The notes: generated from the sequence alone by a model not told the origin. A stretch of 64,000 nucleotides of DNA from Candidatus Campbellbacteria bacterium (GCA_016699465.1 CP064977.1:542503-606502); one strand, 5' to 3'. Positions 31,958 to 50,790 are shown, counted from the stretch's first letter. Made by a program: numbers and translations.

Positions 31958-32235
31958 TGTATACAAGAAGCCCCACAGAAGCGCGGGGCTTCTTGTGGGG
32001 GGGGGTGAAAGAGCTGCGGTTATTCAAGCCATCGGTCTGTGGTTCGATTGGAGCCGTCGGCGTCGCCTCGGGGTTGTTCGAAAGAGGATTCTCCATATCG
32101 ATATGAGTATAGCAAAGTGGGAGGCGTACGGGGGCGTTGCCTTGGTGGTTAGTGTCACTGATTGTCTTTTTGTGTTTTGTGTGGAGAATGGTTCTTGGAA
32201 TGAGGTTCTTCGGGTTCGTGAAAGGAGCTGAGAGT

Positions 32236-32418
32236 ATGGGAGAAGGAAAAACGCCAAGTGCGCGGGTTCAGGAGTATTTGAATAGCGATCAGCCCTCCCG
32301 GTACGTGGTGTTGTACGGAGTGAGGGGTCTCTTCGACCACCTCCCACCCTTTGCCAGCCTCAAGCGGGCATATGCGATGTCCAAGGCGCGTCGTCCGAGG
32401 GCATTGCACAAGAAGTGA
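32236..32418 (+). CDS. hypothetical small basic protein (60 aa) in GC island
   Basis: AGGAG RBS 8 nt upstream of ATG. Terminator hairpin ccccggaccaggttgtccgggg+T-run at about 32441-32468. Confidence 0.3.
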   Translation: MGEGKTPSARVQEYLNSDQPSRYVVLYGVRGLFDHLPPFASLKRAYAMSKARRPRALHKK

Positions 32419-32577
32419 GAGTGGGGGGGGCAGAGTTCCCCCATGCCCCGGACCAGGTTGTCCGGGGTTTTTAGTTCAAAACCAAGGCGTTGTCTTGGTT
32501 GTTGACTTGTCATTTGGCGCGAGCGTGTGTAGAGTGGTGCTTGGACTTGGTCTTCTTACTCGCTAGGGAGGTGTCGA

Positions 32578-32826
32578 GTGCTTGACGAGCGCGACGAGTA
32601 CACTTGGGCGGCAGGGGCGCGGAAGAGACACCGCGAGCGGGGGTGTTTTGGTCACAACCCCCCGCCGGGAACCCCGTCAATTCCGTCTGTGTTTGACGGT
32701 TACCCGACGCCGAGCAAGTGGCGCCGCATCGGGGGAAGTGGCAATGCCGTCAGCTCCGCGGTGGGTGGCGAAGAGCCTGCCCAGACCCCCGAGGAACCGG
32801 AAGATGTTGTTGGTGCCCCCGTGTGA
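32578..32826 (+). CDS. hypothetical small protein (GTG start) in GC island
   Basis: GGGAGG RBS 7 nt upstream of GTG. GC-rich hairpin downstream at about 32886-32925. Weak. Confidence 0.25.
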   Translation: MLDERDEYTWAAGARKRHRERGCFGHNPPPGTPSIPSVFDGYPTPSKWRRIGGSGNAVSSAVGGEEPAQTPEEPEDVVGAPV

Positions 32827-32932
32827 ACGGGGGTTTCGTTTTGTTTGTATGAGGTGTTGCTCTGGGTTTGAATAAAAAAGGAAGCCCCGCGCGATGCGCG
32901 AGGCTCGTGCGGGGGGGGCGAGGATGAAACGG

Positions 32933-33355
32933 TTACTGCCACCGGTCGTAGTAGTACCAATAGAACATCTCTGCGACCTTCTCCGGCTCATCTCGTCCGG
33001 CGATTTGGTCGAGACTTTCTGCTAGATCCTTCTGTGAGAGGTAATCACGGCTAGCGCCCGCGTACTTCACGAGGAACATGGGCGTACCATCATCTAGCGG
33101 TTCTACTGGGTTGATGATGGCAATCAGGGGAGGGCTCGAGATTATTCCCACCGCGGGAAACATGACGTGGTTGAGCTTTTGCTCCATCTCGGCCGTATGG
33201 ACCTTCGCAGCTCTTGTTGTGGCGGGGTCAGGTCCCGTGGCGAGTGTTTTCCAGTTGGGCACTACCCAGTAATACATCATAAACATGATGCAAACCAGGA
33301 AGAACCCCGCAGACACCTTCACGGCGAAGCGAAACCGTCTTGTGTTTGAGTCCAT
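32933..33355 (-). CDS. single-pass membrane hypothetical protein (141 aa) in GC island
   Basis: Start at MDSNTRRF with GGGAGA RBS. TM FFLVCIMFMMYYWVV. Preceded by conserved 80-bp promoter/operator element. Confidence 0.45.
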   Translation of the reverse strand: MDSNTRRFRFAVKVSAGFFLVCIMFMMYYWVVPNWKTLATGPDPATTRAAKVHTAEMEQKLNHVMFPAVGIISSPPLIAIINPVEPLDDGTPMFLVKYAGASRDYLSQKDLAESLDQIAGRDEPEKVAEMFYWYYYDRWQ

Positions 33356-33384
33356 TTTTCTCCCTTGGCCGAAGGCCTTGCGCA

Positions 33385-33464
33385 CTGCATTTTTGTACGA
33401 CAACGAACAACCCAAATCCGCGCAGATTCTGCGCTTAAAATACAAAGAAGTCAATCCGAGGCAA
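33385..33464. repeat. 80-bp conserved upstream element, copy 1 (putative promoter TTGACT...CAGAAT with palindromic operator GCGCAGA-T-TCTGCGC)
   Basis: Identical apart from a GC dinucleotide to copy at 34465-34546. Lies immediately 5' of the 32933-33355 gene on the minus strand. Confidence 0.7.
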
Positions 33465-33529
33465 CGCCTCCGATCAACAAAACAAAGCGCCGACCTCGGG
33501 GAGGTCGGCGTTGGAAGAGGTACATCTGA

Positions 33530-34471
33530 TCAGTCGGCCTTGTTGGTCCCGAGCTTGGCGAGCGCCCACTCGATCCGCCCGCGCCGCTCGAGCGCCCGGT
33601 ACACCTTGTGCTCGATGTGCCCCACGACGGGGCCGAGCACGAGGCCCACCAGCGCGTAGGCAACGAGGTTCTCGTTGAGCCAAGCTCCCACCGCCATGGC
33701 GATGGACAGCGAGAACAGGGTTGCCAACGCCGCCGCTCGCCGTCCTTCCTCGTTCGTGTACTTCACGAAGAGAAGGATGGTGCGGGTGAAGGCGGAGAAC
33801 AACTGTAGGAGGTCACGCAGGATCAGTGTGGGGTGTGCGAGGAGCTCCCGAAGATCTTCGGCGCAGGCCGAGAGGGTGTGGGTGAGACTCTTCGCCAAGG
33901 CCTTGATGAGCCAAAGTAGCGCCCTGCCACCCCAGTACGCAACGGCAATCGGATTGAGGTATTTCAGGAGGGCCTTTCTGTAGAGAGCAACTATGAACCT
34001 CCTAGTAGGAAGGTCGTCAAACGGCCACAACTCCATAGCCGAAAGAAGAAAACCAAATACTGGGGCCAGAAAGGCACCAAGCGCGATTGCTCCGGGCAAT
34101 GTGTTGGCCAAGTTGTCGAACAACCAGAGGGCGCTTGTCATGTACAGGTTGAAGAAGAAAGAGAGGAGGGTCATCCACACGGACAGAGTCAGATAGACTT
34201 TTATCCGTTGCATCTCCTCCGGCATACCGACCATCGTCTCCTTGACCGCGCGCACGAAAGCGACGCACGCGCTCTGCCAGTCGTAGGCGATCCATCCCAC
34301 GACGGCTCCGACGATGGCGGCCAGGGCGAGCGACGCCCACGGCCAGCCGAACTGGGCCACGAAGGCCAGTCCGAGCAGTACACCTGTGAGGCATCCCGTG
34401 AGAATCCCCCAAAACGGACTCTTTTGCACGACTTCCCTTCCTTTCTCGGCCCGTAGGCCATCGAACTGCAT
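33530..34471 (-). CDS. polytopic integral membrane hypothetical protein (313 aa) in GC island
   Basis: At least 7 predicted TM segments, high-GC codon usage. Preceded by conserved 82-bp promoter/operator element. Confidence 0.5.
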   Translation of the reverse strand: MQFDGLRAEKGREVVQKSPFWGILTGCLTGVLLGLAFVAQFGWPWASLALAAIVGAVVGWIAYDWQSACVAFVRAVKETMVGMPEEMQRIKVYLTLSVWMTLLSFFFNLYMTSALWLFDNLANTLPGAIALGAFLAPVFGFLLSAMELWPFDDLPTRRFIVALYRKALLKYLNPIAVAYWGGRALLWLIKALAKSLTHTLSACAEDLRELLAHPTLILRDLLQLFSAFTRTILLFVKYTNEEGRRAAALATLFSLSIAMAVGAWLNENLVAYALVGLVLGPVVGHIEHKVYRALERRGRIEWALAKLGTNKAD

Positions 34472-34546
34472 TTTTGTACGACAACGAACAACCCAAATCC
34501 GCGCAGATTCTGCGCTTAAAATACAAAGAAGTCAATCCGAGGCAAC
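34465..34546. repeat. 82-bp conserved upstream element, copy 2
   Basis: tgcatttttgtacgacaacgaacaacccaaatccgcgcgcagattctgcgcttaaaatacaaagaagtcaatccgaggcaac. A third, degenerate copy lies at about 34945-35030 upstream of the 34604-34927 gene. Confidence 0.7.
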
Positions 34547-34603
34547 ACCTTTGTTCAACAAAACAAAAGCCCCGCGCGAGTGCGGGGCTCGTGCGGGGGC
34601 GCT

Positions 34604-34927
34604 TCAGTCGTTGATTGTTGTGATGGTGAACGGGCTCACCAGAATCGCTTCTGATGCCCCATCGAGTTCGACCGCCACAATTCGTTCGCTTCCCCCATTC
34701 CCGAGATTCCCGTTGCTCCAGATACCAAGGACCTTTCCTTTGAGTCCTTTGGGCAGTTGAGCTTCAGCGGTGGTGATGAACCGATCACCCTCGCGAATGA
34801 CTCGCGTGCTACCTCGTGGAATGATTCCGGCGTAGAACTCGGCGCTATCGAGGATGAGATCTCCCCACATGCAGCGCTTCAGAGTCTCGCCTTCTCGTAG
34901 TTGAATTTGATTCCCGGATTCTGACAT
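34604..34927 (-). CDS. small hypothetical protein (107 aa), paralog of 35078-35395
   Basis: MSESGNQIQLREGETLKRCMWG...IREGDRFITTAEAQLPKGLKGKVLGIW aligns with MSDVQEIRK...GETTSRCLWG...IRIGDRVVSRGIWYIPKGSTGTVVEI. Own promoter-like element and terminator (gccccgccgacgttctgtcggcggggc at about 35042-35071). Confidence 0.45.
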   Translation of the reverse strand: MSESGNQIQLREGETLKRCMWGDLILDSAEFYAGIIPRGSTRVIREGDRFITTAEAQLPKGLKGKVLGIWSNGNLGNGGSERIVAVELDGASEAILVSPFTITTIND

Positions 34928-35077
34928 CGCCCCGCTCCTTGACCCGTAGGCCTCAGTGCTGCGTTTCTTGTACGACAACGAACACGTAAATCTGCGGTGA
35001 TTTTGCACTTCATGTGAGAAGAAGTCAATCCATCGACAAAAAAGAAGCCCCGCCGACGTTCTGTCGGCGGGGCGGGG

Positions 35078-35395
35078 TTAGACACTTTTCGGAAGGATGT
35101 CGTCCGGAATAACATACGCGCGTATGGTTGCCCCATCGAAGAGAACGTTGATGAGGTCTCCTGGAGAGAGTGTGTTCATCTCGATCTCTACCACTGTTCC
35201 GGTACTTCCCTTTGGGATGTACCAGATGCCTCTAGAGACAACGCGGTCTCCAATTCGAATGGTGTATCCTTTTGTGTTGAAGCCGACGCACTTTCCGTTC
35301 GAAACGATGAAAATCCCCCACAGACATCGTGAGGTGGTTTCTCCCGCCAGGAGAACCGGCTCAACTTCTTTGCGGATTTCTTGTACGTCGCTCAT
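35078..35395 (-). CDS. small hypothetical protein (105 aa), paralog of 34604-34927
   Basis: See paralog. Upstream TTGACA-17-TATTGT promoter-like sequence. Downstream terminator. Confidence 0.45.
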   Translation of the reverse strand: MSDVQEIRKEVEPVLLAGETTSRCLWGIFIVSNGKCVGFNTKGYTIRIGDRVVSRGIWYIPKGSTGTVVEIEMNTLSPGDLINVLFDGATIRAYVIPDDILPKSV

Positions 35396-35520
35396 GGGAC
35401 TCCTTTCGAGTCTCTGTGTTGAACAACAATTCTGGCGAAACAATAGTCCGATATGCGTGCTTTGTCAACGAAGATGAAGAAGCCCTGCCGACGTTCTGTC
35501 GGCGGGGCGTTCTTCTTTTG

Positions 35521-36075
35521 TTATTTCTGTTCTTGCGGAGGTCGTTTGCGATCGTTGCGTCCACCTCGGTACCCCATGAGGTACTTACGAGGGTCTTCGT
35601 CGAGGTTTGTGAAATGATCTGCAGCCTCGATGAGTTTTGCGGATGTTGAACGTCCGAATGCGATTGCTTCTACTTGGCACCCTTCACTAATTTGAAGATA
35701 CTGCACAAGTGGAACATAGTCTCCGTCCCCAGATACAATGACAACGGCATCCAATTTTGGTGCGAGTTTCACTGCGTCCATGGCGAGTCCAACGTCCCAG
35801 TCGGCCTTTTTTGCACCTCCTGCGAAAATTTGTAAATCTTTTGTCTTCACCTCAATACCCATCTTGGTAAGAGCTTCAAAAAATGTTTTTTCTTCACCTG
35901 ATTCAGTTGAAATAACGTATGCGATTGCACGAACGAGCGGTCGCTCCCCTATTGCATCTTTAACGATTGCTGCGAAATTAACGCGAGCGTTGTAGAGATG
36001 TCGTGCACTGTGATAGAGATTTTGCGCGTCGATAAAAACGGCAACGCGCTGTGCCTTCTGTTTGATTATGGTCAT
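35521..36075 (-). CDS. NYN-domain (LabA-like, PIN-related) putative RNase
   Basis: RVAVFIDAQNLYHSARHL...VVIVSGDGDYVPLV matches the NYN domain acidic core. 184 aa. Confidence 0.7.
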   Translation of the reverse strand: MTIIKQKAQRVAVFIDAQNLYHSARHLYNARVNFAAIVKDAIGERPLVRAIAYVISTESGEEKTFFEALTKMGIEVKTKDLQIFAGGAKKADWDVGLAMDAVKLAPKLDAVVIVSGDGDYVPLVQYLQISEGCQVEAIAFGRSTSAKLIEAADHFTNLDEDPRKYLMGYRGGRNDRKRPPQEQK

Positions 36076-36192
36076 AAAATGATTTTAATAAGCTCAAAAT
36101 TCAAATTTCAAAATCCAAAAAAGTAATGCTCAATGTGTTATATATGTAAATTTTTTGAGCTTTGGATTTTATACTTTGAGCTTACGGTACGA

Positions 36193-36453
36193 TTACTCTT
36201 TGATCTTCTTCATCAACTCAGTGTACTTTGCTGGGTTTTTCTTTTTGAGGTATGCCAAATGTGTTCGGCGTTGTGCCACCATTCCGAGAAGACCACGTCG
36301 TGAGTGTTTGTCCTTGCGGTTGTCTTTCAGGTGCTTCGAAAGTTCATCAATACGTTTTGAGAGCAAATTGATTTGTACTTCTGGAGAACCAGTGTCAGCA
36401 TCGTGCCGAGCGCTTTCTTTGATAACTTTGATTTTCTTTTTCTTGGATAACAT
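36193..36453 (-). CDS. rpsO: 30S ribosomal protein S15
   Basis: MLSKKKKIKVIKESARHDADTGSPEVQINLLSKRIDELSKHLKDNRKDKHSRRGLLGMVAQRRTHLAYLKKKNPAKYTELMKKIKE, unmistakable S15. Confidence 0.85.
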   Translation of the reverse strand: MLSKKKKIKVIKESARHDADTGSPEVQINLLSKRIDELSKHLKDNRKDKHSRRGLLGMVAQRRTHLAYLKKKNPAKYTELMKKIKE

Positions 36454-36856
36454 ATGAATAGAATATGGGTGGATAGTATGTGGTATGTAGAATGTGGAAT
36501 GAGGTATATGGAATGTGGGGCGGTGATACAAAAATGTTGGGGTTAGGGCCTCCAACGGAAAATACTATATCAAAACTTTGGACATATCGCAAGTTAGGGT
36601 GTGTGTCGCTGGTGTGTAGGGAAAATGTGTCTGGATACGTGTGGAAGGTATTGTTTATCTTGTTTTGGTGTTGTGTAGTTTTTGAAGGTACGTTCTTCGG
36701 ATCCACCGTATTTCTGGGCCGTGTCTAGTATACAGTGGACCCTTTCGCGGGGTCAGAAAAAACTCATCATTCACTGACCCCGCGTTTTTATATACCAAAA
36801 GAAAAAGCCGGCATGCTCTGTTGAAAAACAGTGTGCACACCGGCCGGAGGAGTGAT

Positions 36857-37099
36857 TTATTTGAACCCGTTGGCAATCCAGATAACTGCGAAAACGAGTC
36901 CTCTAGCGAGAGCAATTATAGACGCGAACCCGAAGGAGAGTGGCCAGATAAGAGCGGTAGACGGCTGAGGCCGGTACATCCAAGGGGTTCCGGATCCCGT
37001 TGTGCCCCCAGACTTTCGAAGTGCCCACACCCAACACCCACCGAGAAAGATGTACCCAAATGCTCCGACTATCCAACACAGCGCAATTATCCAGTTCAT
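36857..37099 (-). CDS. small Trp-rich membrane protein (80 aa)
   Basis: Two TM helices. AAGGGG RBS-like. Minus-strand terminator at about 36796-36848. Confidence 0.4.
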   Translation of the reverse strand: MNWIIALCWIVGAFGYIFLGGCWVWALRKSGGTTGSGTPWMYRPQPSTALIWPLSFGFASIIALARGLVFAVIWIANGFK

Positions 37100-37485
37100 C
37101 TCGCACCCCTTTTGTTAGTGAGGCGTAATTGTCTGTTGAACTATCTAGCGTTGTTTATATGCTTGTACAAAGGCATTGTCAATGTATTTCTTTTTTAACA
37201 GATGTGTCGCACAATATCACATAGAGATATATTGTGACGGCAAAAGTTTTTGAATAGAAAAAGACCCGCCACAGGAGGACGGGTCTGAAGAACTGGGGTT
37301 CGGGACGCTCACACTCGAGAGATTCTAGGCACCTTGCGTTTTGTGTCGACCGAGAACTCGGGCCGAACGCGACAGGTGGTGTACCCAGGTCTCGAGTTTA
37401 GGCAACTTCTCCCCAAACCCTTTTCCATATACACACTATCACAGTACAAAAATATGTCCACATCCATTAGTATTTTTCATATTAT

Positions 37486-38412
37486 ATGATCAAAGATGTT
37501 GAAACATTAAAAAGAGAATTTCTTGAATACCTCGAGATTGAGCGAGGTCGTTCTATTAAGACAATAGAAAACTACGACCGGTACCTCTCTCGATTTATTG
37601 CATTTTCGAAGGTGTCCAAGACGAGTGATATTACCGAGACATCTGTTCGTGAATTTCGTTTGTGGTTGAACCGCCAAACATCGCGTGTCCAGAAAAAAGA
37701 TGCAGGTAACACCTTGAAAAAGAATACACAGAACTACTACCTCATCGCCCTCCGTGCATTTTTAAAGTTTCTACGTAAACGAAACGTGGAAACACTTCAA
37801 CCAGAAGCAATTGAACTCGCAAAAGTCGGCGAACGTGATCTTGATTTAATTACACCAGTGGAGCTTGGTCGTATTATGGATGCCCCAAAAGGAAGCTCTG
37901 TGCAAGCACTGCGAGATAAGGCGTTGTTGGAGCTACTCTTTTCAACAGGTATGCGTGTATCGGAGCTCGTATCACTTCCGCGCGATGTTGATTTGTCGCG
38001 AGGCGAATTCTCTATTCGTGGAAAGGGTGAAAAGGTTCGTGTGGTCTTCGTTTCCCCTTCTGCACGAGATGCGGTTAATGCGTATTTAGAAAAAAGAACT
38101 GACATGGACGATGCACTCTTTATCCAGTTTGGAAAGGCGTCAAAAAATGCAAAAGACTTGAGGTTAACGGCTCGTTCTGTTGAGCGTTTGGTAAAACGAT
38201 ATGCAGTGAAATCAGGTATCAGTAAGAAAGTAACACCACACGTCATTCGCCACTCGTTTGCGACCGATTTACTTGAGAATGGTGCTGATTTACGAAGTGT
38301 GCAGGCACTCCTCGGTCATGCAAATATCACCACGACGCAAGTGTACACGCACGTGACCGACAAACATTTGAAAGAGGTGCACAACAAATTCCACGGCCAA
38401 CAAAAACAATAG
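37486..38412 (+). CDS. tyrosine recombinase XerC/XerD family
   Basis: 308 aa. N-terminal core-binding domain. C-terminal catalytic ...HVIRHSFATDLLENGADLRSVQALLGHANITTTQVYTHV (R..HxxR..Y). Confidence 0.85.
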   Translation: MIKDVETLKREFLEYLEIERGRSIKTIENYDRYLSRFIAFSKVSKTSDITETSVREFRLWLNRQTSRVQKKDAGNTLKKNTQNYYLIALRAFLKFLRKRNVETLQPEAIELAKVGERDLDLITPVELGRIMDAPKGSSVQALRDKALLELLFSTGMRVSELVSLPRDVDLSRGEFSIRGKGEKVRVVFVSPSARDAVNAYLEKRTDMDDALFIQFGKASKNAKDLRLTARSVERLVKRYAVKSGISKKVTPHVIRHSFATDLLENGADLRSVQALLGHANITTTQVYTHVTDKHLKEVHNKFHGQQKQ

Positions 38413-38436
38413 TACAATACACGTATCGTTATCGGC

Positions 38437-39617
38437 GCTTTTATTTTTTATGAAAAAATATTACATACTCGTACTTTTTGTCTGTGTTATAAGTCCACTC
38501 TTTGCTCGTGCGGAAGACGTTATTTTTCAAAAAGTACTTCGAACCTATGATCAAAATGGATATAACTCTTCCTGGGGCTCCCGTGCTTTTGAAGGTACAG
38601 CGTGGCTTTCAGGAGGAGATTTGATAGTCACAGGAAGTTGCAAACAGGACCACACAGGAGGCGCATTTCTCTTCGGAAGTGATGGTGTATATAAAGGAAT
38701 TGGAAACACATGTAGTGATACAAGCTCTATTAGGTTGGGCTGTTCGGAGGCGGGAGGATGTCAATTGGGGACCGCTATTGCTGAGCGCCCAGATGGTTCA
38801 ATTGTACGTTTAGGACAAAGCCGCAATTTTGTTCGACGCTCTCCTGCTGTCTACACTATTGCATCAGACGGGCTCTCGTTTGTATCTCGACTCTTTTTTT
38901 CAAAATCAAGCGATGAGTATATGTATCCCCAAGGTCCAGAAAATGACTGGAATACATGGGCAAGCTACTACGATCCTGTTGTTACCTCGGATGACATACT
39001 GGTGATGAGGAAAGGTGGAGATGGGTACTTTCCACAACTAGACCGTCTTGTTGCGTTTAGTCTGCCAGAGTTCGGTGCGCTGTGGACAAAAAATTTAACG
39101 GGAGAGATCGTTGGTGGTATTAAAGATATGTTCATTCAAACCAACGCACGAAATTATCCCAAAGAACTCGTTGTATATCGCGTGAGTCGTGGTGGGGTAA
39201 CTGAAATTGACCGAGAACCAATCAATGGATTATGGAAATCATCGTGGGGCACATCCGCTTTGAAAAAAGATCCTAGTGATGCATCGGTGTTTGCTATTAA
39301 AACAGGAACAGGTCCACGAGATACAAAAATAGTTCGCTACCGAGCGAGTGCTTCAGGTATACAAAAAATTGATGAGAGAACTATACCTAGTGATGTGTAT
39401 GGCGCTGACTTTTCAATCTTTGGTGACTACCTAGCATTTGCTACAGGTGGCCCTCGCGTGTGGAAGGGTACGAAGGAGCTAACGATTGGAAGCGCCCCTG
39501 CAGGCACACTGTGGAATGTTTCAAGTGTTTCGTTTGGTCGTGATGGAAAACTCGCCGTCGCAAATGCTAAAAATGTGTTGTTGTACGCGCTTAGTGGAAC
39601 GGTTACACCTCCGGTTT
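38437..39617. repeat. 1.18 kb direct repeat, copy A (covers 5' UTR and first about 390 codons of the secreted-protein gene)
   Basis: About 100% nucleotide identity to 39925-41107 except two single-base homopolymer length differences. Confidence 0.8.
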
Positions 39618-39793
39618 CCATTCCTCCACCAGGTGGCTCGGGGAAAGGTGCTCCATTATATGATTTGAAGTATGGGAATTGTACATTAAAGATGACTACG
39701 GGCGATGTTCAATTTAACTCACCCATCACAAGTGCATTTTTTAATTGTATGCTCAATAGTGCTCTTCAAGGATTTACAACAAGTAAACGCTAG
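38450..39793 (+). CDS. secreted hypothetical protein (447 aa), intact short paralog
   Basis: Signal peptide MKKYYILVLFVCVISPLFARA. Gly/Ser-rich beta-rich protein. 37 nt downstream of the recombinase gene. Confidence 0.7.
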   Translation: MKKYYILVLFVCVISPLFARAEDVIFQKVLRTYDQNGYNSSWGSRAFEGTAWLSGGDLIVTGSCKQDHTGGAFLFGSDGVYKGIGNTCSDTSSIRLGCSEAGGCQLGTAIAERPDGSIVRLGQSRNFVRRSPAVYTIASDGLSFVSRLFFSKSSDEYMYPQGPENDWNTWASYYDPVVTSDDILVMRKGGDGYFPQLDRLVAFSLPEFGALWTKNLTGEIVGGIKDMFIQTNARNYPKELVVYRVSRGGVTEIDREPINGLWKSSWGTSALKKDPSDASVFAIKTGTGPRDTKIVRYRASASGIQKIDERTIPSDVYGADFSIFGDYLAFATGGPRVWKGTKELTIGSAPAGTLWNVSSVSFGRDGKLAVANAKNVLLYALSGTVTPPVSIPPPGGSGKGAPLYDLKYGNCTLKMTTGDVQFNSPITSAFFNCMLNSALQGFTTSKR

Positions 39794-39924
39794 ATAAAAT
39801 TCAAGTACATCTCTAATAAGGCCCCGCTCAAGTACGAGTGGGGCTTTGTGTTCTTGTGTGAAGTAGGTCGAGAAGAATAGCGAACCAATATTTCACGGGG
39901 TACAATGTGTGTGTCATTATTCAT

Positions 39925-41107
39925 TTTTATTTTTTATGAAAAAATATTACATACTCGTACTTTTTGTCTGTGTTATAAGTCCACTCTTTGCTCGTGCGGA
40001 AGACGTTATTTTTCAAAAAGTACTTCGAACCTATGATCAAAATGGATATAACTCTTCCTGGGGCTCCCGTGCTTTTGAAGGTACAGCGTGGCTTTCAGGA
40101 GGAGATTTGATAGTCACAGGAAGTTGCAAACAGGACCACACAGGAGGCGCATTTCTCTTCGGAAGTGATGGTGTATATAAAGGAATTGGAAACACATGTA
40201 GTGATACAAGCTCTATTAGGTTGGGCTGTTCGGAGGCGGGAGGATGTCAATTGGGGACCGCTATTGCTGAGCGCCCAGATGGTTCAATTGTACGTTTAGG
40301 ACAAAGCCGCAATTTTGTTCGACGCTCTCCTGCTGTCTACACTATTGCATCAGACGGGCTCTCGTTTGTATCTCGACTCTTTTTTCAAAATCAAGCGATG
40401 AGTATATGTATCCCCAAGGTCCAGAAAATGACTGGAATACATGGGCAAGCTACTACGATCCTGTTGTTACCTCGGATGACATACTGGTGATGAGGAAAGG
40501 TGGAGATGGGTACTTTCCACAACTAGACCGTCTTGTTGCGTTTAGTCTGCCAGAGTTCGGTGCGCTGTGGACAAAAAATTTAACGGGAGAGATCGTTGGT
40601 GGTATTAAAGATATGTTCATTCAAACCAACGCACGAAATTATCCCAAAGAACTCGTTGTATATCGCGTGAGTCGTGGTGGGGTAACTGAAATTGACCGAG
40701 AACCAATCAATGGATTATGGAAATCATCGTGGGGCACATCCGCTTTGAAAAAGATCCTAGTGATGCATCGGTGTTTGCTATTAAAACAGGAACAGGTCCA
40801 CGAGATACAAAAATAGTTCGCTACCGAGCGAGTGCTTCAGGTATACAAAAAATTGATGAGAGAACTATACCTAGTGATGTGTATGGCGCTGACTTTTCAA
40901 TCTTTGGTGACTACCTAGCATTTGCTACAGGTGGCCCTCGCGTGTGGAAGGGTACGAAGGAGCTAACGATTGGAAGCGCCCCTGCAGGCACACTGTGGAA
41001 TGTTTCAAGTGTTTCGTTTGGTCGTGATGGAAAACTCGCCGTCGCAAATGCTAAAAATGTGTTGTTGTACGCGCTTAGTGGAACGGTTACACCTCCGGTT
41101 TCAATTT
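39925..41107. repeat. 1.18 kb direct repeat, copy B
   Basis: See copy A. Confidence 0.8.
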
Positions 41108-42522
41108 TACCACCGACGGGTGTGGGAAGTGGTTTTAATGGATTGCCTCCAGGAACAACCGAAAAAGAACTCACTACGGTAACAAAAAGTATTTTGCAAC
41201 AAATGGGAATTGGTAACTGTCCCCTTCCACCATCATCAGGTGCAACAATCAACACGACAGGACCAGCACAATTGAGTGCGTTTCTTAATTGTTTACTCCA
41301 AACATCACTAAGTGGTCCATATACAAGTCCTCCAATCTCATCAAATACACCAACATCACTGCAACGACATCCAATACCGCTGATGCCTCCTCAGGTATCA
41401 AACGCTGTTTCGTTAAGCAAGACGCTTATTACTCAGCCAGGATTTTCTGCTACTACAGGTTCATCTGATGTAGCACTAGTTGGTGCTCGGTGGGTTGATG
41501 GAAAATTTGTTCTCTCGAGTTTTTGTAGCGCTACTGGAAATAATAAAGGTCTCTGGATTTTCAGCGAGAGTGGCACGCAGATTGCCGAACGCAATGCGTG
41601 TCGTGATGCTGGTGAGGATCAAAATGGTTCCACAGATCACACGTGGGGCGTTACGCCAAACGTACAATTGGTTGGTAATGGTCAATTTCTAAAAGAAATG
41701 GGACCATACAATAATCGTCCACCACTTCTCTACCACGTTTCTAATGGCGATTTAATTTCCAAAGCGTGGAATGCGCGAGGAATGAGTGGTAATGGCACTG
41801 ATGTTACGAGTGACATAGCGGGAATACCTGGGTATGCAGTTGTTATTGAAAATGGAACGGACAATGTGCTCTATGCGTTGCCGGATTGGAATGTGCTCCA
41901 ACGTGTTTCAAGAAAGTTCCAACCAATTACGGGTGTCGGAAATTATATCGTCGGAACACCAACTCCTGGAAATAAAGATCTGGTTTTGTATAAGGTAGCA
42001 AATAACACATTGGAATTAGTAAACAAAGTAACGACGAATATTCGCCCTGTTGCTGCTGCAGTTGACCCGTCTTCAAACGGTACACGTGTTGGATTCTTGT
42101 TTATAAATGATGGTGGTACAGGAAAAAATCACGCAGATATCTACACTGTTGGTAGTACGGGGCTTAAGTTTGTAAAAAAGGTAACACTCCCTTCGACAAC
42201 AACATTTACCTCTACAGGATGGCAGAATGCATTTGCACTAACCGGTGAGTACGTTGCTTTCAATGATTGTGGATTACCTGCACTTCCTGCGCCTAGCGGA
42301 ACAGGAGACAATCTATCTTCTGCAAAATGCGGTCTCGCTGTTTTGAAAGGTACAACACGTATGACTGTACAACGAATACCTAATGCAACGACGAACGACG
42401 GTTCACAAATTCTTCCACCGGCTATTCGTGGTATTGCGATTTCTCCAAGTGGCGCTGTTATTGTTACAAATAGTTACGGTGCATACCTCTACAAAATTGG
42501 TGGAGGTGGTGTTGGCAACTAA
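39939..42522 (+). pseudogene. long paralog (about 860 aa if repaired) of the secreted protein, interrupted by two +/-1 frameshifts in homopolymer runs (T-run near 40380, A-run near 40748); alternatively phase-variable or sequencing error
   Basis: ORF track splits it into 39909-40490, 40406-40816 and 40717-42522. Each piece is 100% identical in amino acids to the corresponding part of 38450-39793, then continues into a unique about 470-aa C-terminal region. Confidence 0.6.
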
Positions 42523-42540
42523 AAACAAAAGCAAAAATAA

Positions 42541-42572
42541 AAAGCCCCGCTCGTTCTCGAGCGGGGCTTTTT
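42541..42572. terminator. bidirectional rho-independent terminator
   Basis: aaaagccccgctcgttctcgagcggggcttttt between convergent genes. Confidence 0.65.
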
Positions 42573-42592
42573 GTATCTGATTTTTTCTATTA

Positions 42593-42853
42593 CTACATCT
42601 GCTGTGTTGGTGCTTGCTTCACTTCGCATGAGTTGCACTTGCTACACTTGCAGCTGAAGATTGACATCACACCTGCAACACCGACGAGAATGTAGACAAC
42701 ACCCTCGAGCCATGACCAATTACCAAAGATAAGGTTTACGAGGTTCCAATTGCTTCCAAAGAAACCACCAAGACCAACGAGACCCCAGTTAACTGCACCA
42801 ACAATGACCAAAATCCACGTTACCATTGCAATACCACATTTTCCTTTCATCAT
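42593..42853 (-). CDS. DUF378-like small membrane protein
   Basis: ...VIVGAVNWGLVGLGGFFGSNWNLVNLIFG... matches the NWGL(I/V)G core of the DUF378 family. C-terminal CxxC pairs. Confidence 0.55.
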   Translation of the reverse strand: MMKGKCGIAMVTWILVIVGAVNWGLVGLGGFFGSNWNLVNLIFGNWSWLEGVVYILVGVAGVMSIFSCKCSKCNSCEVKQAPTQQM

Positions 42854-43082
42854 ATTTTTTTGGAGATCGGATTCCCAATCTCTAGGTTATATAAATAATG
42901 TTATAAGCAGTTCTATTGTATCAGAAAAAATCTCGTGCAATATTACTGATAAGTGAACAAATGATATACTCAGAGGATACGTCTCGTTAGACATTCTTTT
43001 AATCGGAGTGTCGTGGCGGGTCGTCTTATAAAAGTTGTAACTTAAGATGTGAAAATGTCTCTCATTTTCTATCTCTAATGGG

Positions 43083-43853
43083 ATGCAAATCATTTCATGG
43101 AACGTAAATGGACTCCGTGCCCTCTTCAATCAGGGTTACTGGGATTGGTTTGAACAAGAAAAACCGGATATTTTTTGTCTTCAAGAAACAAAGGCGGAAG
43201 AAAGCCAACTTGCTCCTGAGGTTCAAAAACCACTCGGATACTTCGCCTACTTCAACTCATCAAAAGAACGAAAGGGATATAGTGGTGTTGCTCTGTACAC
43301 AAAAATAGAGCCCAAAAACGTGTCCTTCGACGTGCTTCCAGAAAGATTCAACACCCAAGGGCGTCTCATTGAGGCCGTTTTTGATGATTTCGTACTTTTG
43401 AACGTCTATTTTCCGAATGGTGGCGGTTCTCCCGAGAAGCTCCAGTACAAGCTTGATTTTTATGATGCTTTTCTAGAACACATTCAAAAACTCAGAAAAG
43501 ATGGCAAAAAGGTGATTTTTTGTGGGGACGTCAATGTTGCCCATGAAGAAATTGATATCGCTCGACCAAAAGAGAACGAGGGACATGTTGGATTTTTGCC
43601 TGAGGAGCGTGCGTGGATGGATGAAGTACTTTCTGCGGGGTTTGTTGATACATTTAGACACTTCTATCCTGACAGGAAAAACGCATATTCATACTGGGAT
43701 ACGGTTACTCGCGCTCGCGATAGAAATGTTGGATGGCGACTTGATTATTTCATTGTTTCACAAGATATACTCCCTAAAATCAAGCGATCGGAGATACTGA
43801 CTGATGTATTTGGTTCGGATCATTGCCCTGTGGGGATAGAGTTGGGAATGTAG
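43083..43853 (+). CDS. xth: exodeoxyribonuclease III (AP endonuclease, Xth family)
   Basis: MQIISWNVNGLRA... and ...RLDYFIVSQ...GSDHCPV match ExoIII/APE1 family motifs. Confidence 0.85.
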   Translation: MQIISWNVNGLRALFNQGYWDWFEQEKPDIFCLQETKAEESQLAPEVQKPLGYFAYFNSSKERKGYSGVALYTKIEPKNVSFDVLPERFNTQGRLIEAVFDDFVLLNVYFPNGGGSPEKLQYKLDFYDAFLEHIQKLRKDGKKVIFCGDVNVAHEEIDIARPKENEGHVGFLPEERAWMDEVLSAGFVDTFRHFYPDRKNAYSYWDTVTRARDRNVGWRLDYFIVSQDILPKIKRSEILTDVFGSDHCPVGIELGM

Positions 43854-44186
43854 AATATAGAATGCAGTCATTGTTGTTGTAGTAAAATACGAGACATTTG
43901 ACTTTTATTTTTGTTTATGTTACAAAGGAGCTAGGCCTGAGCCATTCGCAAGGAGACGTTCATTCTCTGGCGAATAAGTGCCGGTACACAGACGATGCTC
44001 AGGTGGGGAGATCGGTCCGGTCGGACGCTCCCAAACGGCGGAAGCCTCCAGTCCTAGGAAACTGGTCGACTCCGCGCCTCGGAACATGGTTCTGGGGTTT
44101 TTCTTTTAGAAATTTTTTGGTGTATTCAAAAAAGCGTTGTTTTTAGGCCATATTTTTGCTGTATTCTCAACTTAACGCAAAAACAC

Positions 44187-44215
44187 TTGACTTTTTATTT
44201 ATATTGTATATAATA
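44187..44215 (+). promoter_or_regulatory. consensus sigma70-like promoter TTGACT-N16-TATAAT
   Basis: cacTTGACTttttatttatattgtaTATAATac. Confidence 0.45.
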
Positions 44216-44221
44216 CTTTTC

Positions 44222-44500
44222 GGACAGTGAGTGAGGGTGCTGGGATGTCGGGGGCTTAACCCCCTAGTTCCCTTGCGAGGCCGATTTCCGTTGCGGAATC
44301 AATTGAGGAACAAAACCTCGAAGGTTCTTGCCGAGAACGGATACACAGGTCCAGCTTTCATTCACTGTTCGCTGTTCTTTTACCTCTGCGAGATGACCTC
44401 GCGGAGAAAACGTGAAGGAGGACGGTCATGGCGCAGGCCATCGCGACCCCGCCCGCAAGAGGCCCGCCGGACAAGCAGTACCCTATCGAATATGATAGGG
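44222..44500 (+). ncRNA. candidate structured RNA / leader transcript (about 280 nt) ending in an intrinsic terminator; contains a 28-codon ORF with perfect RBS
   Basis: Bounded by the promoter above and terminator ccctatcgaatatgataggg+TTTTTATTTT. GC-rich stems (gggggcttaaccccc; ctctgcgagatgacctcgcggag). gaAGGAGGacggtcATG ... 28 codons. Not assignable to a known RNA family by eye. Confidence 0.3.
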
Positions 44501-45154
44501 TTTTTATTTTATAAAGGACATTATGTCCTTTATATATTTAAACATACGGAACGAGGCTATATTTTCAAGAAGGGACCCACGGAAAGCGAAGAGCTTGAGT
44601 GTGATCGCCATTTCAGCAGAAATGGACGCGTGCCCTTGAAAATATAGGCGAGTGGAGAGTTATCCACTTCATGTCCTTTACAACCATAAGCATGTCCTTT
44701 ACACTTACTACCAGAAGTCAGTGAACGGGCCTAATTAAATATATACCCCACACAACAATCTCCTTGCCCGTTTGTGACACTTTGTTCTTTCCCAGCTGGA
44801 TAGGGATCGAGGAAAACAATCGTCAACGGTTTCGCGTGAATCTCTCGCGGGACACAGCACGAGAATAGTGCGCACCACTTTCGCACCTCAAGCTATACGT
44901 TTAGATCTTTCTTACCCCACATCCACACACTAAGGATTTCTCACTGAGAGGTCCTGAAGCCAAGGCCGTCTTGCACTGTTACAGAAGGTTATTCTTCACC
45001 GAATTACGTTCCGTGACTCCAAGGCGGCTTTTTGCATGTGGTTGATTTTATTAGCAAGCGATAGCGAGATGCATAAAATCACCACCCCGCCATGGCGGGG
45101 TTCTCAAAAATTATATTCGCTATGCTCATTAATTTTTGGAAGAAGTTGGAAGAG

Positions 45155-45176
45155 GGCTAATTCATGCGAATTAGCC
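45155..45176. repeat. 22-bp near-perfect palindrome ggctaattcatgcgaattagcc (hairpin family member)
   Basis: Compare 31936-31957. Confidence 0.55.
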
Positions 45177-45180
45177 GATA

Positions 45181-45209
45181 TTGACACGGACAAAAAATGT
45201 AATATAATA
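45181..45209 (+). promoter_or_regulatory. consensus sigma70-like promoter TTGACA-N16-TATAAT
   Basis: TTGACAcggacaaaaaatgtaaTATAAT immediately 5' of the small membrane-peptide ORF. Confidence 0.45.
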
Positions 45210-45262
45210 CTAACGAATGTTCTCGAGCAACCATGCTCGAAAAAACAACAGGAGACAAGACG

Positions 45263-45430
45263 ATGTACTCTCTTGGTTTTCAGACGATGGCTATTCTCAT
45301 AGCCGTACCGTTCCTGGCCCAATTTTTCAGTGGGAAGTGCAACTGGAAGGCCGCTGTGGGTTATGCCTACAGGTATGTGGCTGGCGTTGCGTTCTTCATG
45401 TGGGTGTTGCACCAGGGGGGATACAAGTAG
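45263..45430 (+). CDS. small hydrophobic peptide (about 55 aa), own promoter and terminator
   Basis: Frame of ORF-track entry 45233-45430 (…MYSLGFQTMAILIAVPFLAQFF…), AGGAGA RBS. Terminator gcccgaaacttcggtttcgggc+T-rich at about 45459-45495. Coordinates +/-1 nt (see noticed_but_rejected). Confidence 0.4.
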   Translation: MYSLGFQTMAILIAVPFLAQFFSGKCNWKAAVGYAYRYVAGVAFFMWVLHQGGYK

Positions 45431-45535
45431 AATCCCTCGACCAAGCAACGTACATTTGCCCGAAACTTCGGTTTCGGGCAGATTTTCTTTTCTCTCAACC
45501 TAAAAAGCTACGAAGCTATAAGTTAGCACTCCCCG

Positions 45536-47227: not shown

Positions 47228-47449
47228 AATACTATTGCCCAAGAATAATACAGGTGAATCGGTCACGAGTTTCTAGCTTCCTCACTGTGCTTCGCACAAT
47301 TCCGTCGCAAGAACTCTCGACTCCAGCTCGTCCCCACCTTCAGCGGATGACTGCGCTTTTCGATTCTCCACGCAAACAAAGTAGTTTGTTTGCTCTGCTT
47401 CGCAAAACATAAGAAAAAACCGGAAGATATCAGATTTTTTCTTAGTTTG

Positions 47450-47520
47450 TGCGGGCAGGGAGAATCGAACTCCCGTCTCGTCCTTGGCAAGGACGTGTTC
47501 TACCACTAAACCATGCCCGC
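47450..47520 (-). tRNA. tRNA-Gly (anticodon GCC), CCA not encoded
   Basis: Acceptor GCGGGCA/TGCCCGC, anticodon loop TTGCCAA, T arm GGGAG-TTCGATT-CTCCC. Confidence 0.9.
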
Positions 47521-47868
47521 TTTTATTGATGCTTTGATGGACACGTCCACCACAAAGAACAGTATATCTATTTTTCGTCAATTTACCATATGTTTATAAC
47601 AATTTTAGGATACTAGTATATTCTTCGACCATGCATTTTTGAGAGTCGGTCACTGTTAAAGGTCTTTATATTAAAAGACAGTTAGTTTTTCATATGGTCT
47701 TTAATGAATGCGTATTTTAAAGGGTAAAATGTGGAAAACTGTGGACAATTAGGGGGATATGTGTAAAAGACAGGCAATTGGACACATGTAAAATGGTGGC
47801 AAAAATGACAATAATATAGCCTAGTTAAGCCGTTTTATGTATTTTGTCTCTGATAATGTCCGATATAT

Positions 47869-50596: not shown

Positions 50597-50719
50597 TTTG
50601 TATAAAATACAGAGCCGATACGCCTACCTTGTAATGGTGGGCGTTGTCGTTTTTGCATTTTTTGGTACTATGCTTCTATAGCATTGTTTAATGGGGTACC
50701 CGTTTGAGCTTTAACAGAT

Positions 50720-50790
50720 GCGGGCATGGTTTAGTGGTAGAATGACTGCCTTCCAAGCAGTAGACGGGAGTTCGATTCTCCCTGCCCGCA
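50720..50790 (+). tRNA. tRNA-Gly (anticodon TCC), CCA not encoded
   Basis: Same acceptor/D/T arms as the GCC isoacceptor. Anticodon stem ACTGC/GCAGT loop CTTCCAA. Followed by terminator gccggatatgtgtccggc+TTTTT. Confidence 0.9.

What the first reader, a model, noticed from the sequence alone, without database searches (positions are those of the whole stretch)
37486..42522. Tyrosine recombinase followed by a freshly duplicated secreted-protein gene pair; second copy carries two homopolymer frameshifts
A 1.18 kb direct repeat (38437-39617 and 39925-41107) is about 100% identical. It covers the promoter-proximal region plus about 390 codons of a signal-peptide protein. Copy 1 is an intact 447-aa gene. 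Copy 2 would encode about 860 aa, with a unique C-terminal half, but is broken at a T-run (about 40380) and an A-run (about 40748), each one base shorter than in copy 1. Perfect identity implies very recent duplication or ongoing gene conversion. Homopolymer-located frameshifts are consistent with slipped-strand phase variation of a surface protein, recent pseudogenisation, or read errors. Long identical direct repeats next to a recombinase gene also permit recA-mediated copy-number changes.
Basis: seen in the sequence. Interest (0 to 1): 0.65.

Follow-up and report, generated by a model that had tools for sequence, protein, structure and literature searches.

The report
Gene-converted propeller gene pair, probable polishing errors
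Two neighbouring genes for secreted beta-propeller proteins in a tiny wastewater bacterium share a real, perfectly identical 1.18-kb stretch made by recent gene conversion between old paralogues, and the two "frameshifts" in the second gene are most likely leftover Nanopore sequencing errors rather than biology.

Summary
Window 38439-39618 and 39925-41102 are identical apart from two 1-nt homopolymer deletions in copy 2 (T7→T6 at 40380, A6→A5 at 40748). Short-read contigs of the same strain break exactly 30 nt (k−1) inside both outer repeat boundaries, so the repeat is real.

It is not a fresh duplication. Relatives carry the same tandem pair (g1 + g2) between a conserved Xer recombinase and DUF378/ExoIII, with diverged first modules (24-54% identity). 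Only this strain has them homogenised, so this is a recent gene-conversion tract running from 11 nt upstream of the ATG to a conserved "PPVSI" linker patch. The proteins are signal-peptide beta-propeller modules of a small uncharacterised family. The locus is also a mosaic between lineages (linker + domain B dS 0.03-0.09, against 0.25-0.46 in flanking genes).

The source is CP064977, a Flye assembly of R9.4.1 Nanopore reads with one Racon/Illumina polishing round. Both deletions lie in the short-read-blind interior of the window's only long exact repeat. There are no other frameshifts in 64 kb. All three short-read-assembled orthologues are intact, and the repaired gene aligns without gaps to one of them. 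The deletions are most likely unpolished errors (~75%). The Xer gene is a syntenic bystander.

The parts
37486..38412 (+). Xer-type tyrosine recombinase (308 aa), a conserved syntenic neighbour and probably a bystander
   Evidence: Pfam Phage_integrase plus SAM-like N-terminal domains. NCBIfam XerD 3.4e-73 and XerC 9.5e-72 over the full length; XerA_Arch 233 bits, above its cutoff of 220. Same position (rpsO-Xer-propeller gene) in L002-L006, L008 and L009.
38439..39618 (+). Repeat copy 1 (1180 nt), the conversion tract in g1. It runs from 11 nt upstream of the ATG to codon 390.
   Evidence: 0 mismatches to copy 2. The short-read contig L009 ends at 38468, which is k-1 inside the repeat.
38450..39793 (+). 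g1 (copy 1 gene), intact, 447 aa: Sec signal peptide, beta-propeller module A, then a 56-aa two-Cys tail
   Evidence: ORF. Propeller model pLDDT 79.5, pTM 0.82. The tail is nearly identical to the g1 tails of L008, L001 and L007.
38894..38900 (+). T7 tract in copy 1 (in frame)
   Evidence: The tract is not conserved in relatives (TTCTTC or TTTCTTTC).
39263..39268 (+). A6 tract in copy 1 (in frame)
   Evidence: The same in-frame A6 is present in L008 g2.
39619..39793 (+). g1-specific tail, not converted; 35% aa identity to the g2 linker
   Evidence: blastp E 3e-9. Nucleotide alignment shows the switch from g2-type to g1-type right after CACCTCCGGTTTC.
39816..39849 (+). Intrinsic-terminator-like hairpin of g1; paralogous (76%) to the one after g2
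   Evidence: The same hairpin follows g1 in L008, L001 and L007.
39925..41102 (+). Repeat copy 2 (1178 nt), the 5' part of g2
   Evidence: The short-read contig L010 starts at 41073, which is k-1 before the repeat end.
39936..42522 (+). g2 (copy 2 gene): 862 aa once 2 bases are restored. Signal peptide, propeller A, two-Cys linker, then propeller B. As deposited it is broken into 3 frames.
   Evidence: The repaired gene aligns to L008 g2 with 0 gaps over 2589 nt and 94.5% aa identity. omega is 0.14-0.28.
40380..40385 (+). T6 tract, 1 nt shorter than in copy 1: the first frameshift. It lies 455 nt from the nearest unique sequence.
40748..40752 (+). A5 tract, 1 nt shorter than in copy 1: the second frameshift. 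It lies 354 nt from the nearest unique sequence.
41103..42519 (+). g2 linker plus propeller module B. It is 97-100% identical to L008, far above the genomic background.
   Evidence: dS 0.087 (linker) and 0.027 (B), against 0.25-0.46 in pnp, ExoIII and CCA. Fisher p 1e-14 to 1e-26. B is 21% identical to A.
42537..42574 (.). Bidirectional terminator hairpin between g2 and the convergent DUF378 gene

Best explanation
**What is there.** The locus holds two old tandem paralogues, g1 and g2, that encode secreted proteins built from ~370-aa beta-propeller modules. Each gene has its own paralogous upstream box, signal peptide and terminator. They sit in a fixed chromosomal slot (rpsO - Xer - g1 - g2 - DUF378 - ExoIII) of a Paceibacteria ('Ca. 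Campbellbacteria') genome, CP064977.

**How the repeat arose.** In this strain the first propeller module of one gene very recently overwrote that of the other, by non-reciprocal homologous recombination (gene conversion). The tract runs from the conserved leader (TTTTATTTTTT-ATGAAAAAATAT) to a conserved 13-nt patch in the PPVSI linker. This produced the 1.18-kb exact direct repeat. The repeat itself is shown. Conversion, as opposed to a duplication-plus-deletion route, is inferred.

**The frameshifts.** The two 1-nt homopolymer deletions that break g2 are most likely not biological. The genome was assembled from R9.4.1 Nanopore reads and polished once with Racon, using one-location-per-read Illumina alignments. 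When one copy of an exact repeat carries a homopolymer error, all short reads align to the error-free copy, so the error is never corrected. On this reading g2 is an intact 862-aa gene in the cell (inferred).

**The recombinase.** The Xer gene next door is the conserved chromosomal Xer and plays no part.
For: **The repeat is real.**
- There are 0 mismatches over 1178 nt.
- Short-read k=31 contigs of the same strain, 100% identical over 6.9 kb, break exactly k-1 inside both outer boundaries.

**The pair is old.**
- L008 has g1 (642 aa, a different body at 24-30% identity, the same tail) and g2 (862 aa).
- L001 and L007 have a g1 tail, terminator and conserved upstream box ahead of g2. In L001 the A-type modules of g1 and g2 are only 54% identical.
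- In the window, the sequences just outside the tract are homologous but diverged: about 75% upstream, 35% aa between tail and linker, and 76% between the terminators.

**The frameshifts look like an artefact.**
- The source MAG is EsbW_18-Q3-R4-48_MAXAC.283_fly_man = CP064977. It was assembled with Flye from raw Nanopore reads (R9.4.1, Guppy 2.2.3), then Racon (ONT), medaka and one Racon round with 2x150 Illumina reads, run with --include-unpolished.
- The published failure mode is exactly this one, and Racon is among the alignment-based tools named (PMC8812927).
- Both differences are deletions, one in the longest tract and one in another of the long tracts of the repeat. They lie 354-455 nt from unique sequence, beyond the 150-nt read length.
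- No other repairable frameshift was found among 195 runs of >=6 nt in 64 kb.
- All short-read-assembled orthologues (862, 883 and 1198 aa) are intact.
- Repaired g2 aligns without gaps to L008 g2, and omega is 0.14-0.28.
- The T7 tract is not conserved in relatives.

**Xer is a bystander.** It shows conserved synteny and a Xer-type profile.
Against: - No reads could be inspected, so the tract lengths in copy 2 are not directly verified.
- Systematic Nanopore errors would be expected to hit both identical copies alike, which short reads would then fix. The error must therefore have fallen in one copy only, twice, and both times in copy 2.
- Homopolymers are also the fastest-mutating sites in vivo. 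A redundant, freshly converted paralogue could relax selection on g2.
- The 184-aa and 136-aa fragment ORFs are absent from the contig index. This says nothing either way, because neither the deposited genome nor cut genes are indexed.
- The direction of conversion and the pre-conversion state of g1 (A-type as in L001, or C-type as in L008) are not resolved.
- If g1 was C-type, the end homologies (about 6-23 nt and 13 nt) are short for RecA-type conversion.
Confidence: 0.7

Rival explanations
1. The frameshifts are real. After the A module was copied into g1, the two-propeller gene g2 was inactivated by two slipped-strand deletions. This would be either incipient pseudogenisation or an 'off' state of a phase-variable surface-protein gene, with the chimeric g1 as the expressed A-module protein.
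For: Both lesions are in homopolymers, which are the most mutable sites. The gene encodes a secreted, fast-evolving protein, with the variable part of module A at dS 0.62 and down to 73% nt identity. The assembly had 359x Illumina coverage and is error-free where it could be checked.
Against: The tracts are short (6-7 nt), and the T tract is not conserved in relatives. Two independent lesions with zero substitutions are not what a one-switch contingency locus looks like. Both fall in the only 1.18-kb stretch of the window where short-read polishing is blind. Orthologues are intact and under purifying selection. No other pseudogenes were seen in 64 kb.
Confidence: 0.22
2. The identical repeat arose as a true recent tandem duplication followed by a deletion, rather than by gene conversion. 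Unequal crossing-over at the PPVSI patch would duplicate [tail - spacer - module A]. A deletion between the two homologous leader regions would then remove the old g1 body.
For: The repeat period (1486 nt) equals module A plus tail plus spacer. The 5' and 3' joints coincide with short patches shared by g1 and g2. If the old g1 body was C-type, as in L008, the homology is too short for classical conversion.
Against: This needs two events where conversion needs one. L001 shows that A-type g1 genes exist (72% identical to the window's A). Ordinary homology-driven conversion between two A-type modules is therefore available. The end product is identical, so the sequence alone cannot separate the two routes.
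Confidence: 0.15
3. The repeat is an assembly artefact: either alleles of two strains stacked in tandem, or a Flye/manual-editing duplication.
For: The MAG was hand-edited at one locus, and metagenome assemblies can stack haplotypes.
Against: An independent short-read de Bruijn assembly branches exactly at both outer boundaries. The inner junction (tail - terminator - spacer) is collinear with L008, L001 and L007. The population is clonal, with 3 polymorphic sites genome-wide. 557x Nanopore coverage easily spans 2.7 kb. The documented manual edit concerned a 40-kb prophage, which is not at this locus.
Confidence: 0.03
4. The adjacent tyrosine recombinase drives site-specific cassette exchange or copy-number change at this locus, in a shufflon- or integron-like way.
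For: Adjacency, and a score above the cutoff for the NCBIfam XerA/integron-integrase-type model.
Against: The same Xer gene sits there in relatives with a single propeller gene. There are no inverted repeats or att-like sites at the tract ends; the ends are the coding leader and linker patches. The repeats are direct and 1.18 kb long, which is a substrate for homologous rather than site-specific recombination.
Confidence: 0.03

Closest known systems
Gene conversion between tandem or dispersed paralogues in bacteria (for example tufA/tufB homogenisation, or opa/pil and other surface-protein families). Recalled from general knowledge, not tested here.
   Same: There is an exact identity tract with sharp ends, embedded in older and clearly diverged paralogous sequence. 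Orthologous pairs in relatives are not homogenised. The genes affected encode secreted proteins.
   Different: The tract replaces one whole structural module (signal peptide plus propeller) between two conserved joints. The recipient keeps its own tail and terminator. There is no evidence of a silent-cassette archive or a programmed mechanism.
Residual homopolymer errors in repeats after short-read polishing of Nanopore assemblies (Wick & Holt 2022, Polypolish, PMC8812927)
   Same: The assembly is long-read-first and polished with a tool that uses one alignment per read (Racon). The differences are restricted to homopolymer length, both are deletions, and they occur in one copy of an exact repeat further than a read length from unique sequence. 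The result is apparent frameshifts.
   Different: This is not verified with reads here. Two errors fell in the same copy and none in the other.
Slipped-strand phase-variable contingency loci (homopolymer tracts in surface-protein genes of Neisseria, Haemophilus, Campylobacter and Mycoplasma). Recalled from general knowledge.
   Same: Frameshifts located in homopolymers of a secreted-protein gene in a host-associated, reduced-genome bacterium.
   Different: The tracts are only 5-7 nt. The T tract is absent from relatives. There are two lesions at once. No population heterogeneity is known, and all orthologues are in frame.
Secreted beta-propeller proteins (WD40-, NHL- or YxaL/PQQ-like folds)
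   Same: The predicted fold is all-beta and propeller-like. Foldseek gives probability 1.0 and TM about 0.55 to Sec12, G-beta, Brat-NHL and YxaL. The protein has a Sec signal peptide.
   Different: Sequence identity is at most 14%. There is no Pfam or NCBIfam match. The family is tiny, at 112 representative clusters out of 1.84 billion. One to three propeller modules are joined by a two-Cys linker.

Membership tests
Gene-conversion tract between paralogues | Identity tract with sharp ends, flanked on both sides by homologous but diverged sequence | tested here: met
   0 of 1178 mismatches inside the tract. Outside it: about 75% identity upstream, 35% aa between tail and linker, and 76% between terminators.
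Gene-conversion tract between paralogues | The paralogues are older than the tract, i.e. relatives carry the pair without homogenisation | tested here: met
   L008 g1 vs g2 is 24% identical. L001 g1 vs g2 A-type modules are 54% identical. L007 also has a g1 tail ahead of g2.
Gene-conversion tract between paralogues | Donor and recipient identifiable; non-reciprocal | tested here: inconclusive
   The A module is orthologous to L008 g2 (88% nt), which suggests g2 to g1. But A-type g1 genes exist in L001, and the PPVSI patch of window g2 carries the g1-type GG.
Unpolished Nanopore homopolymer error in a repeat | Long-read-first assembly polished with one-location-per-read short-read alignments | tested here: met
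   CP064977 was built with Flye on raw ONT R9.4.1 reads, then Racon, medaka and one Racon/Illumina round with --include-unpolished. The failure mode is described in PMC8812927.
Unpolished Nanopore homopolymer error in a repeat | Differences limited to homopolymer length, located in an exact repeat further than a read length from unique sequence | tested here: met
   T7 to T6 and A6 to A5 only. The sites are 455 and 354 nt from the nearest boundary, against 150-nt reads.
Unpolished Nanopore homopolymer error in a repeat | Sequence outside repeats is error-free | tested here: met
   6.9 kb is 100% identical to short-read contigs. No other repairable frameshift was found in 64 kb.
Unpolished Nanopore homopolymer error in a repeat | Raw short reads show only the in-frame tract length | not testable with these tools
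The repeat-interior Logan contig could not be retrieved.
Phase-variable contingency locus | Long simple-sequence tract, conserved as a tract among relatives | tested here: not met
   The tracts are 5-7 nt. The T tract is interrupted in L008, L001 and L002. The A6 tract is shared only with L008.
Phase-variable contingency locus | Tract-length heterogeneity within the population | not testable with these tools
   This needs reads. The published polymorphism figure counts substitutions only.
XerC/XerD-type chromosomal tyrosine recombinase | Full-length profile match and conserved chromosomal synteny, with no mobile-element context | tested here: met
   XerD 3.4e-73 and XerC 9.5e-72 end to end (below the equivalog cutoffs); XerA_Arch 233 bits against a cutoff of 220. 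The rpsO-Xer synteny holds in L002, L008 and L009. The neighbours are housekeeping genes.
Beta-propeller fold | All-beta toroidal repeat fold | tested here: met
   AF2 model pLDDT 79.5 and pTM 0.82, with about 28 strands. Foldseek top hits are WD40, NHL and YxaL propellers at probability 1.0.
Any named propeller family (WD40, NHL, PQQ, Kelch and others) | Significant match to the family's sequence profile | tested here: not met
   There are no Pfam or NCBIfam hits for g1, repaired g2 or the 601-aa fragment.
Site-specific cassette systems (shufflon or integron) | Recombinase core sites or inverted repeats at cassette borders | tested here: not met
   Only direct repeats are present. The inverted-repeat hits are the terminators or weak 72% matches. 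The tract ends lie in the coding leader and linker.

The most novel reading that the evidence does not exclude
The slot between Xer and DUF378 is a dedicated variation locus of these ultra-small, probably host-attached Paceibacteria. Interchangeable beta-propeller 'cassettes' (A-, C- and B-type) would be swapped within and between genomes at two conserved joints, the leader/MKKY start and the PP[VI]SI two-Cys linker. This would give 1-, 2- or 3-module secreted proteins. On this reading the identical repeat is a snapshot of one such swap, and the homopolymer frameshifts are real on/off switching of the long form.
Probability: 0.12. Interest if true: 0.6.

Novelty: new member of a known kind. 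Interest (0 to 1): 0.27.

Why it matters
There are three practical points.

1. **Annotation of CP064977.** IPJ70_03250 is currently a 601-aa 'hypothetical protein'. It is most likely the 3' part of an intact 862-aa two-propeller secreted protein and should be re-polished with a repeat-aware tool. The same blind spot probably affects other exact repeats in the >1000 MAGs made with this pipeline.

2. **A recombination hotspot.** The locus shows a recent intragenomic gene conversion. It also shows a mosaic of divergence between lineages (module A at dS 0.6, linker + module B at dS 0.03, flanks at 0.25-0.46). This marks a recombination-prone, fast-evolving secreted-protein locus in the most abundant Patescibacteria population of that wastewater plant (5.9% of reads). 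Such proteins are candidates for host attachment in organisms whose host interactions are unknown.

3. **Method.** Short-read contigs that end exactly k-1 inside a repeat are a cheap, read-free way to validate repeats in long-read assemblies.

Tried and rejected
- **Fresh duplication.** Rejected once L008, L001 and L007 showed an old g1/g2 pair.
- **L007 as a deletion product.** I first read the 1198-aa protein of L007 as the deletion product of unequal crossing-over at the PPVSI patch. I withdrew this because L007 still has a g1 tail and terminator upstream.
- **L008 g1 as the ancestral state.** I first took L008's C-type g1 body as ancestral. This was weakened by L001's A-type g1, so the direction is left open.
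- **Retrieving the repeat-interior short-read contig.** The 184-aa and 136-aa frameshift products, the 447-aa g1 and the 601-aa fragment are not in the contig index. This is uninformative.
- **Collection scans.** Scans of GTDB genomes and JGI metagenome contigs for relatives found nothing. The profile word-index search added nothing.
- **Other frameshifts.** Candidates at 18379/18404, 26535, 34406/34696, 45562/45999, 53163, 60656 and 11227 are gene ends or opposite-strand shadows.
- **Promoter scan.** No more hits than in shuffled sequence.
- **The paper's 'tandem repeat flanking a 40-kb prophage'.** Considered as possibly this locus. Rejected because the copies here are 306 nt apart with no phage between them.
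- **afdb50 fold library.** Unavailable.

Full report
**1.

A local alignment of the two regions gives three gap-free blocks with zero mismatches: 38439-38893 / 39925-40379, 38895-39262 / 40380-40747, and 39264-39618 / 40748-41102. They are separated by two single-base gaps in copy 2. The gaps fall in a T7 tract (38894-38900, T6 in copy 2 at 40380-40385) and an A6 tract (39263-39268, A5 at 40748-40752).

Copy 1 is an intact 447-aa ORF (38450-39793). Copy 2 is split over three frames. It becomes one 862-aa ORF when the two bases are restored, and its first 391 residues are then identical to copy 1.

The identity ends at 39618/41102. It also starts only 11 nt upstream of the ATG, so the promoter-proximal region is not part of the repeat.

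**2. The repeat is real, not an assembly artefact.**

The window's Xer and ExoIII proteins occur in a Logan (k=31 de Bruijn) assembly of run SRR11674038. Contig L009 is 100% identical to window 34517-38468, and contig L010 is 100% identical to 41073-44031. L009 stops exactly 30 nt into the repeat, and L010 starts exactly 30 nt before its end. This k-1 signature is what a graph produces when one sequence has two different left contexts and two different right contexts. An independent data type therefore supports both outer boundaries to the base. It also shows that the deposited sequence is error-free over 6.9 kb of unique flank.

**3. Source of the window.**

The 601-aa fragment is QQR82274.1 (IPJ70_03250) of a 'Candidatus Campbellbacteria bacterium', on an 811,376-bp contig. 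Supplementary Data 3 of Singleton et al. 2021 (PMC8012365) lists exactly one such genome. It is EsbW_18-Q3-R4-48_MAXAC.283_fly_man, CP064977, circular, assigned to Patescibacteria; Paceibacteria; UBA9983_A; family 21-14-all-36-13. It has 359x Illumina and 557x Nanopore coverage, 5.9% relative abundance and a polymorphic rate of 3.7e-6, with 'only three bp' polymorphic.

The methods were as follows:
- PromethION R9.4.1 sequencing with Guppy 2.2.3 flip-flop basecalling.
- Flye assembly with --nano-raw.
- Racon with Nanopore reads, then medaka.
- One Racon round with HiSeq X 2x150 reads (insert 300-400 bp), mapped by minimap2, with --include-unpolished.

**4. What the genes are.**

Neither protein matches Pfam or NCBIfam. 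Both start with a Sec-type signal peptide (MKKYYILVLFVCVISPLFARA|ED), as read directly from the sequence.

Repaired g2 consists of module A (residues ~22-391), a two-Cys linker, and module B. B is a distant copy of A (21% identity, E 2e-5). AlphaFold2 on a 7-sequence alignment gives an all-beta model for module A (pLDDT 79.5, pTM 0.82). Its best PDB matches are beta-propellers (Sec12, G-beta, Brat-NHL, YxaL), with TM about 0.55 and at most 14% identity.

A full HMM scan of 1.84 billion cluster representatives finds only 112 clusters at E<=1e-3. The ten checked are all unnamed metagenome proteins. So this is a small, uncharacterised family of secreted proteins with one to three propeller modules.

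**5. The pair is old; the identity is a conversion tract.**

Relatives keep the same chromosomal slot (NYN - rpsO - Xer - [propeller gene(s)] - DUF378 - ExoIII - CCA).

| Genome | g1 | g2 |
|---|---|---|
| Window | A + tail (447 aa) | A + linker + B (862 aa repaired); A identical to g1's |
| L008 (closest; flanks 85-94% nt) | C-type body + tail (642 aa) | A + linker + B (862 aa, intact) |
| L001 | A-type + tail (3' end visible) | A-type + linker + B (883 aa) |
| L007 | unknown body + tail | N-terminal extension + C-type + linker + B (1198 aa) |
| L002-L006 | no g1/g2 pair: a single 474-aa gene, A plus a different tail | none |

The supporting details are these:
- The body of L008 g1 is only 24-30% identical to module A. 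Its last ~60 residues equal the tail of the window's copy 1.
- In L001 and L007 the contig start shows the 3' end of a g1 gene with the same tail. This is followed by the same terminator hairpin and a conserved upstream box ahead of g2.
- In L001 the g1 body is A-type but only 54% identical to the A module of its neighbour g2.
- In the window, the sequence just outside the repeat is homologous between the two genes but diverged. It is about 75% identical in the 45 nt upstream, 35% at the amino-acid level between tail and linker (E 3e-9), and 76% between the two terminators.
- The nucleotide alignment places the 5' switch in CTTTTA, 6-11 nt before the ATG. It places the 3' switch directly after the shared patch CACCTCCGGTTTC (PPVS).

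A block of perfect identity with sharp ends, embedded in old diverged paralogues, is the signature of gene conversion. A formally equivalent route is unequal crossing-over followed by deletion, which the sequence cannot exclude. The direction (probably g2 to g1) is not settled.

**6. The locus is also a mosaic between lineages.**

Repaired g2 aligns to L008 g2 without a single gap over 2589 nt, but identity varies from 73% to 100%. Nei-Gojobori estimates are below.

| Segment | dS |
|---|---|
| Variable part of module A | 0.62 |
| Rest of module A | 0.21 |
| Linker | 0.087 |
| Module B | 0.027 |
| pnp (flank) | 0.25 |
| ExoIII (flank) | 0.42 |
| CCA (flank) | 0.46 |

omega is 0.14-0.28 throughout g2. 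The deficit of synonymous differences in linker + B is highly significant (Fisher p 1e-14 to 1e-26). The 3' half of g2 has therefore been exchanged recently between lineages, while module A is at least as diverged as the flanking genes at synonymous sites. All parts have been under purifying selection.

**7. The frameshifts are probably polishing errors.**

Arguments for an artefact:
- **Assembly type.** The assembly is Nanopore-first, and residual errors of such assemblies are mostly homopolymer indels (PMC8812927).
[quoted passage not shown] It names Racon among the alignment-based polishers concerned.
- **Position.** Both sites lie 354-455 nt from the nearest unique base, well beyond a 150-nt read.
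- **Direction.** Both differences are deletions.
- **Density.** From my own knowledge, not a tool result, an ONT-only consensus of that period carries roughly one error per kb. Two in 1.18 kb fits that.
- **Control.** A scan that edits every homopolymer of >=5 nt by +/-1 finds no other site where two ORFs with demonstrable homology fuse. The window holds 195 runs of >=6 nt. The only two lesions thus sit in the only long exact repeat of the window.
- **Orthologues.** All three orthologues from short-read assemblies are intact (862, 883 and 1198 aa). The two deletions are the only indels relative to L008 g2.
- **Tract conservation.** The T7 tract is not a conserved feature. L008 and L002 have TTCTTC and L001 has TTTCTTTC. 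The A6 tract is in frame in L008.

Arguments against:
- I could not see the reads.
- Systematic Nanopore errors should hit both identical copies equally.
- Homopolymers are also where real slippage occurs.

I put the artefact at about 75% and a real inactivation or phase-off state at about 20-25%.

**8. The recombinase.**

The 308-aa protein matches the XerD and XerC models end to end (E 1e-72 to 1e-73). It exceeds the cutoff of the XerA-type model. It sits next to rpsO in every relative, including those with a single propeller gene. No inverted repeats or att-like sites bound the tract. It is a neighbour, not a cause.

**9. Verdict.**

This is a real and very recent gene-conversion tract between old tandem paralogues for secreted beta-propeller proteins, in a clonal bloom of a wastewater Paceibacteria. 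The 'double frameshift' is most probably an unpolished Nanopore artefact.

The mechanisms are known kinds, while the protein family and its modular, recombination-prone locus are undescribed. Interest is modest. It would rise only if reads showed that the tract lengths truly vary.

Noticed in passing
window 41103-42519 vs L008 11036-12454: Linker + propeller module B of g2 is 97-100% identical to the relative L008 (dS 0.03-0.09), while flanking housekeeping genes have dS 0.25-0.46 and module A reaches 0.62. This points to a recent exchange of the 3' half of the gene between lineages.
   Followed up: yes
L001:5-430, L007:1-110, L008:7798-9726: Across relatives, the first module of both g1 and g2 can be A-type or a quite different C-type propeller, some with an extra N-terminal extension. 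It is always joined at the same leader and PP[VI]SI linker. L002-L006 carry only one 474-aa gene in the slot. The module content of this slot is highly variable.
   Followed up: partly
window ~32000-35500: GC-rich island (0.52-0.58, against about 0.43) with tandem small paralogous minus-strand ORFs (32933-33454, 33530-34471, 34604-35008, 35078-35443). One has a weak SH3_12 hit. A 106-nt 95% direct repeat (33381-33486 / 34462-34567) coincides with the start of short-read contig L009 (34517).
   Followed up: partly
window 43854-45535: A 1.7-kb stretch without convincing ORFs between ExoIII and the CCA-adding enzyme. It is partly conserved in L008 (99% at 44692-44941) but has large indels. There is no Rfam family at E<=0.1 except a chance-level SmY hit.
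   Followed up: partly
window 47359-47533 and 50707-50882: Inverted repeats (79-91%) around the tRNA-Gly(GCC) and tRNA-Gly(UCC) genes. They include about 66 nt beyond the tRNAs themselves.
   Followed up: no
window 36466-36515 and 43829-43864: GGAATG/GTAGAATGT-rich short repeat motif upstream of rpsO (minus strand), and again at the 3' end of ExoIII.
   Followed up: no
source genome CP064977 (outside this window): The source paper reports that half of this clonal population carries a 40-kb prophage inserted between a tandem repeat, and that the deposited sequence was hand-edited there. There is no sign of it in this window.
   Followed up: partly
window 38450-39793: The intact 447-aa g1 protein was not found in the protein collection even though neighbouring proteins of the same GenBank record were. 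It may be annotated as a pseudogene or partial in the record.
   Followed up: no
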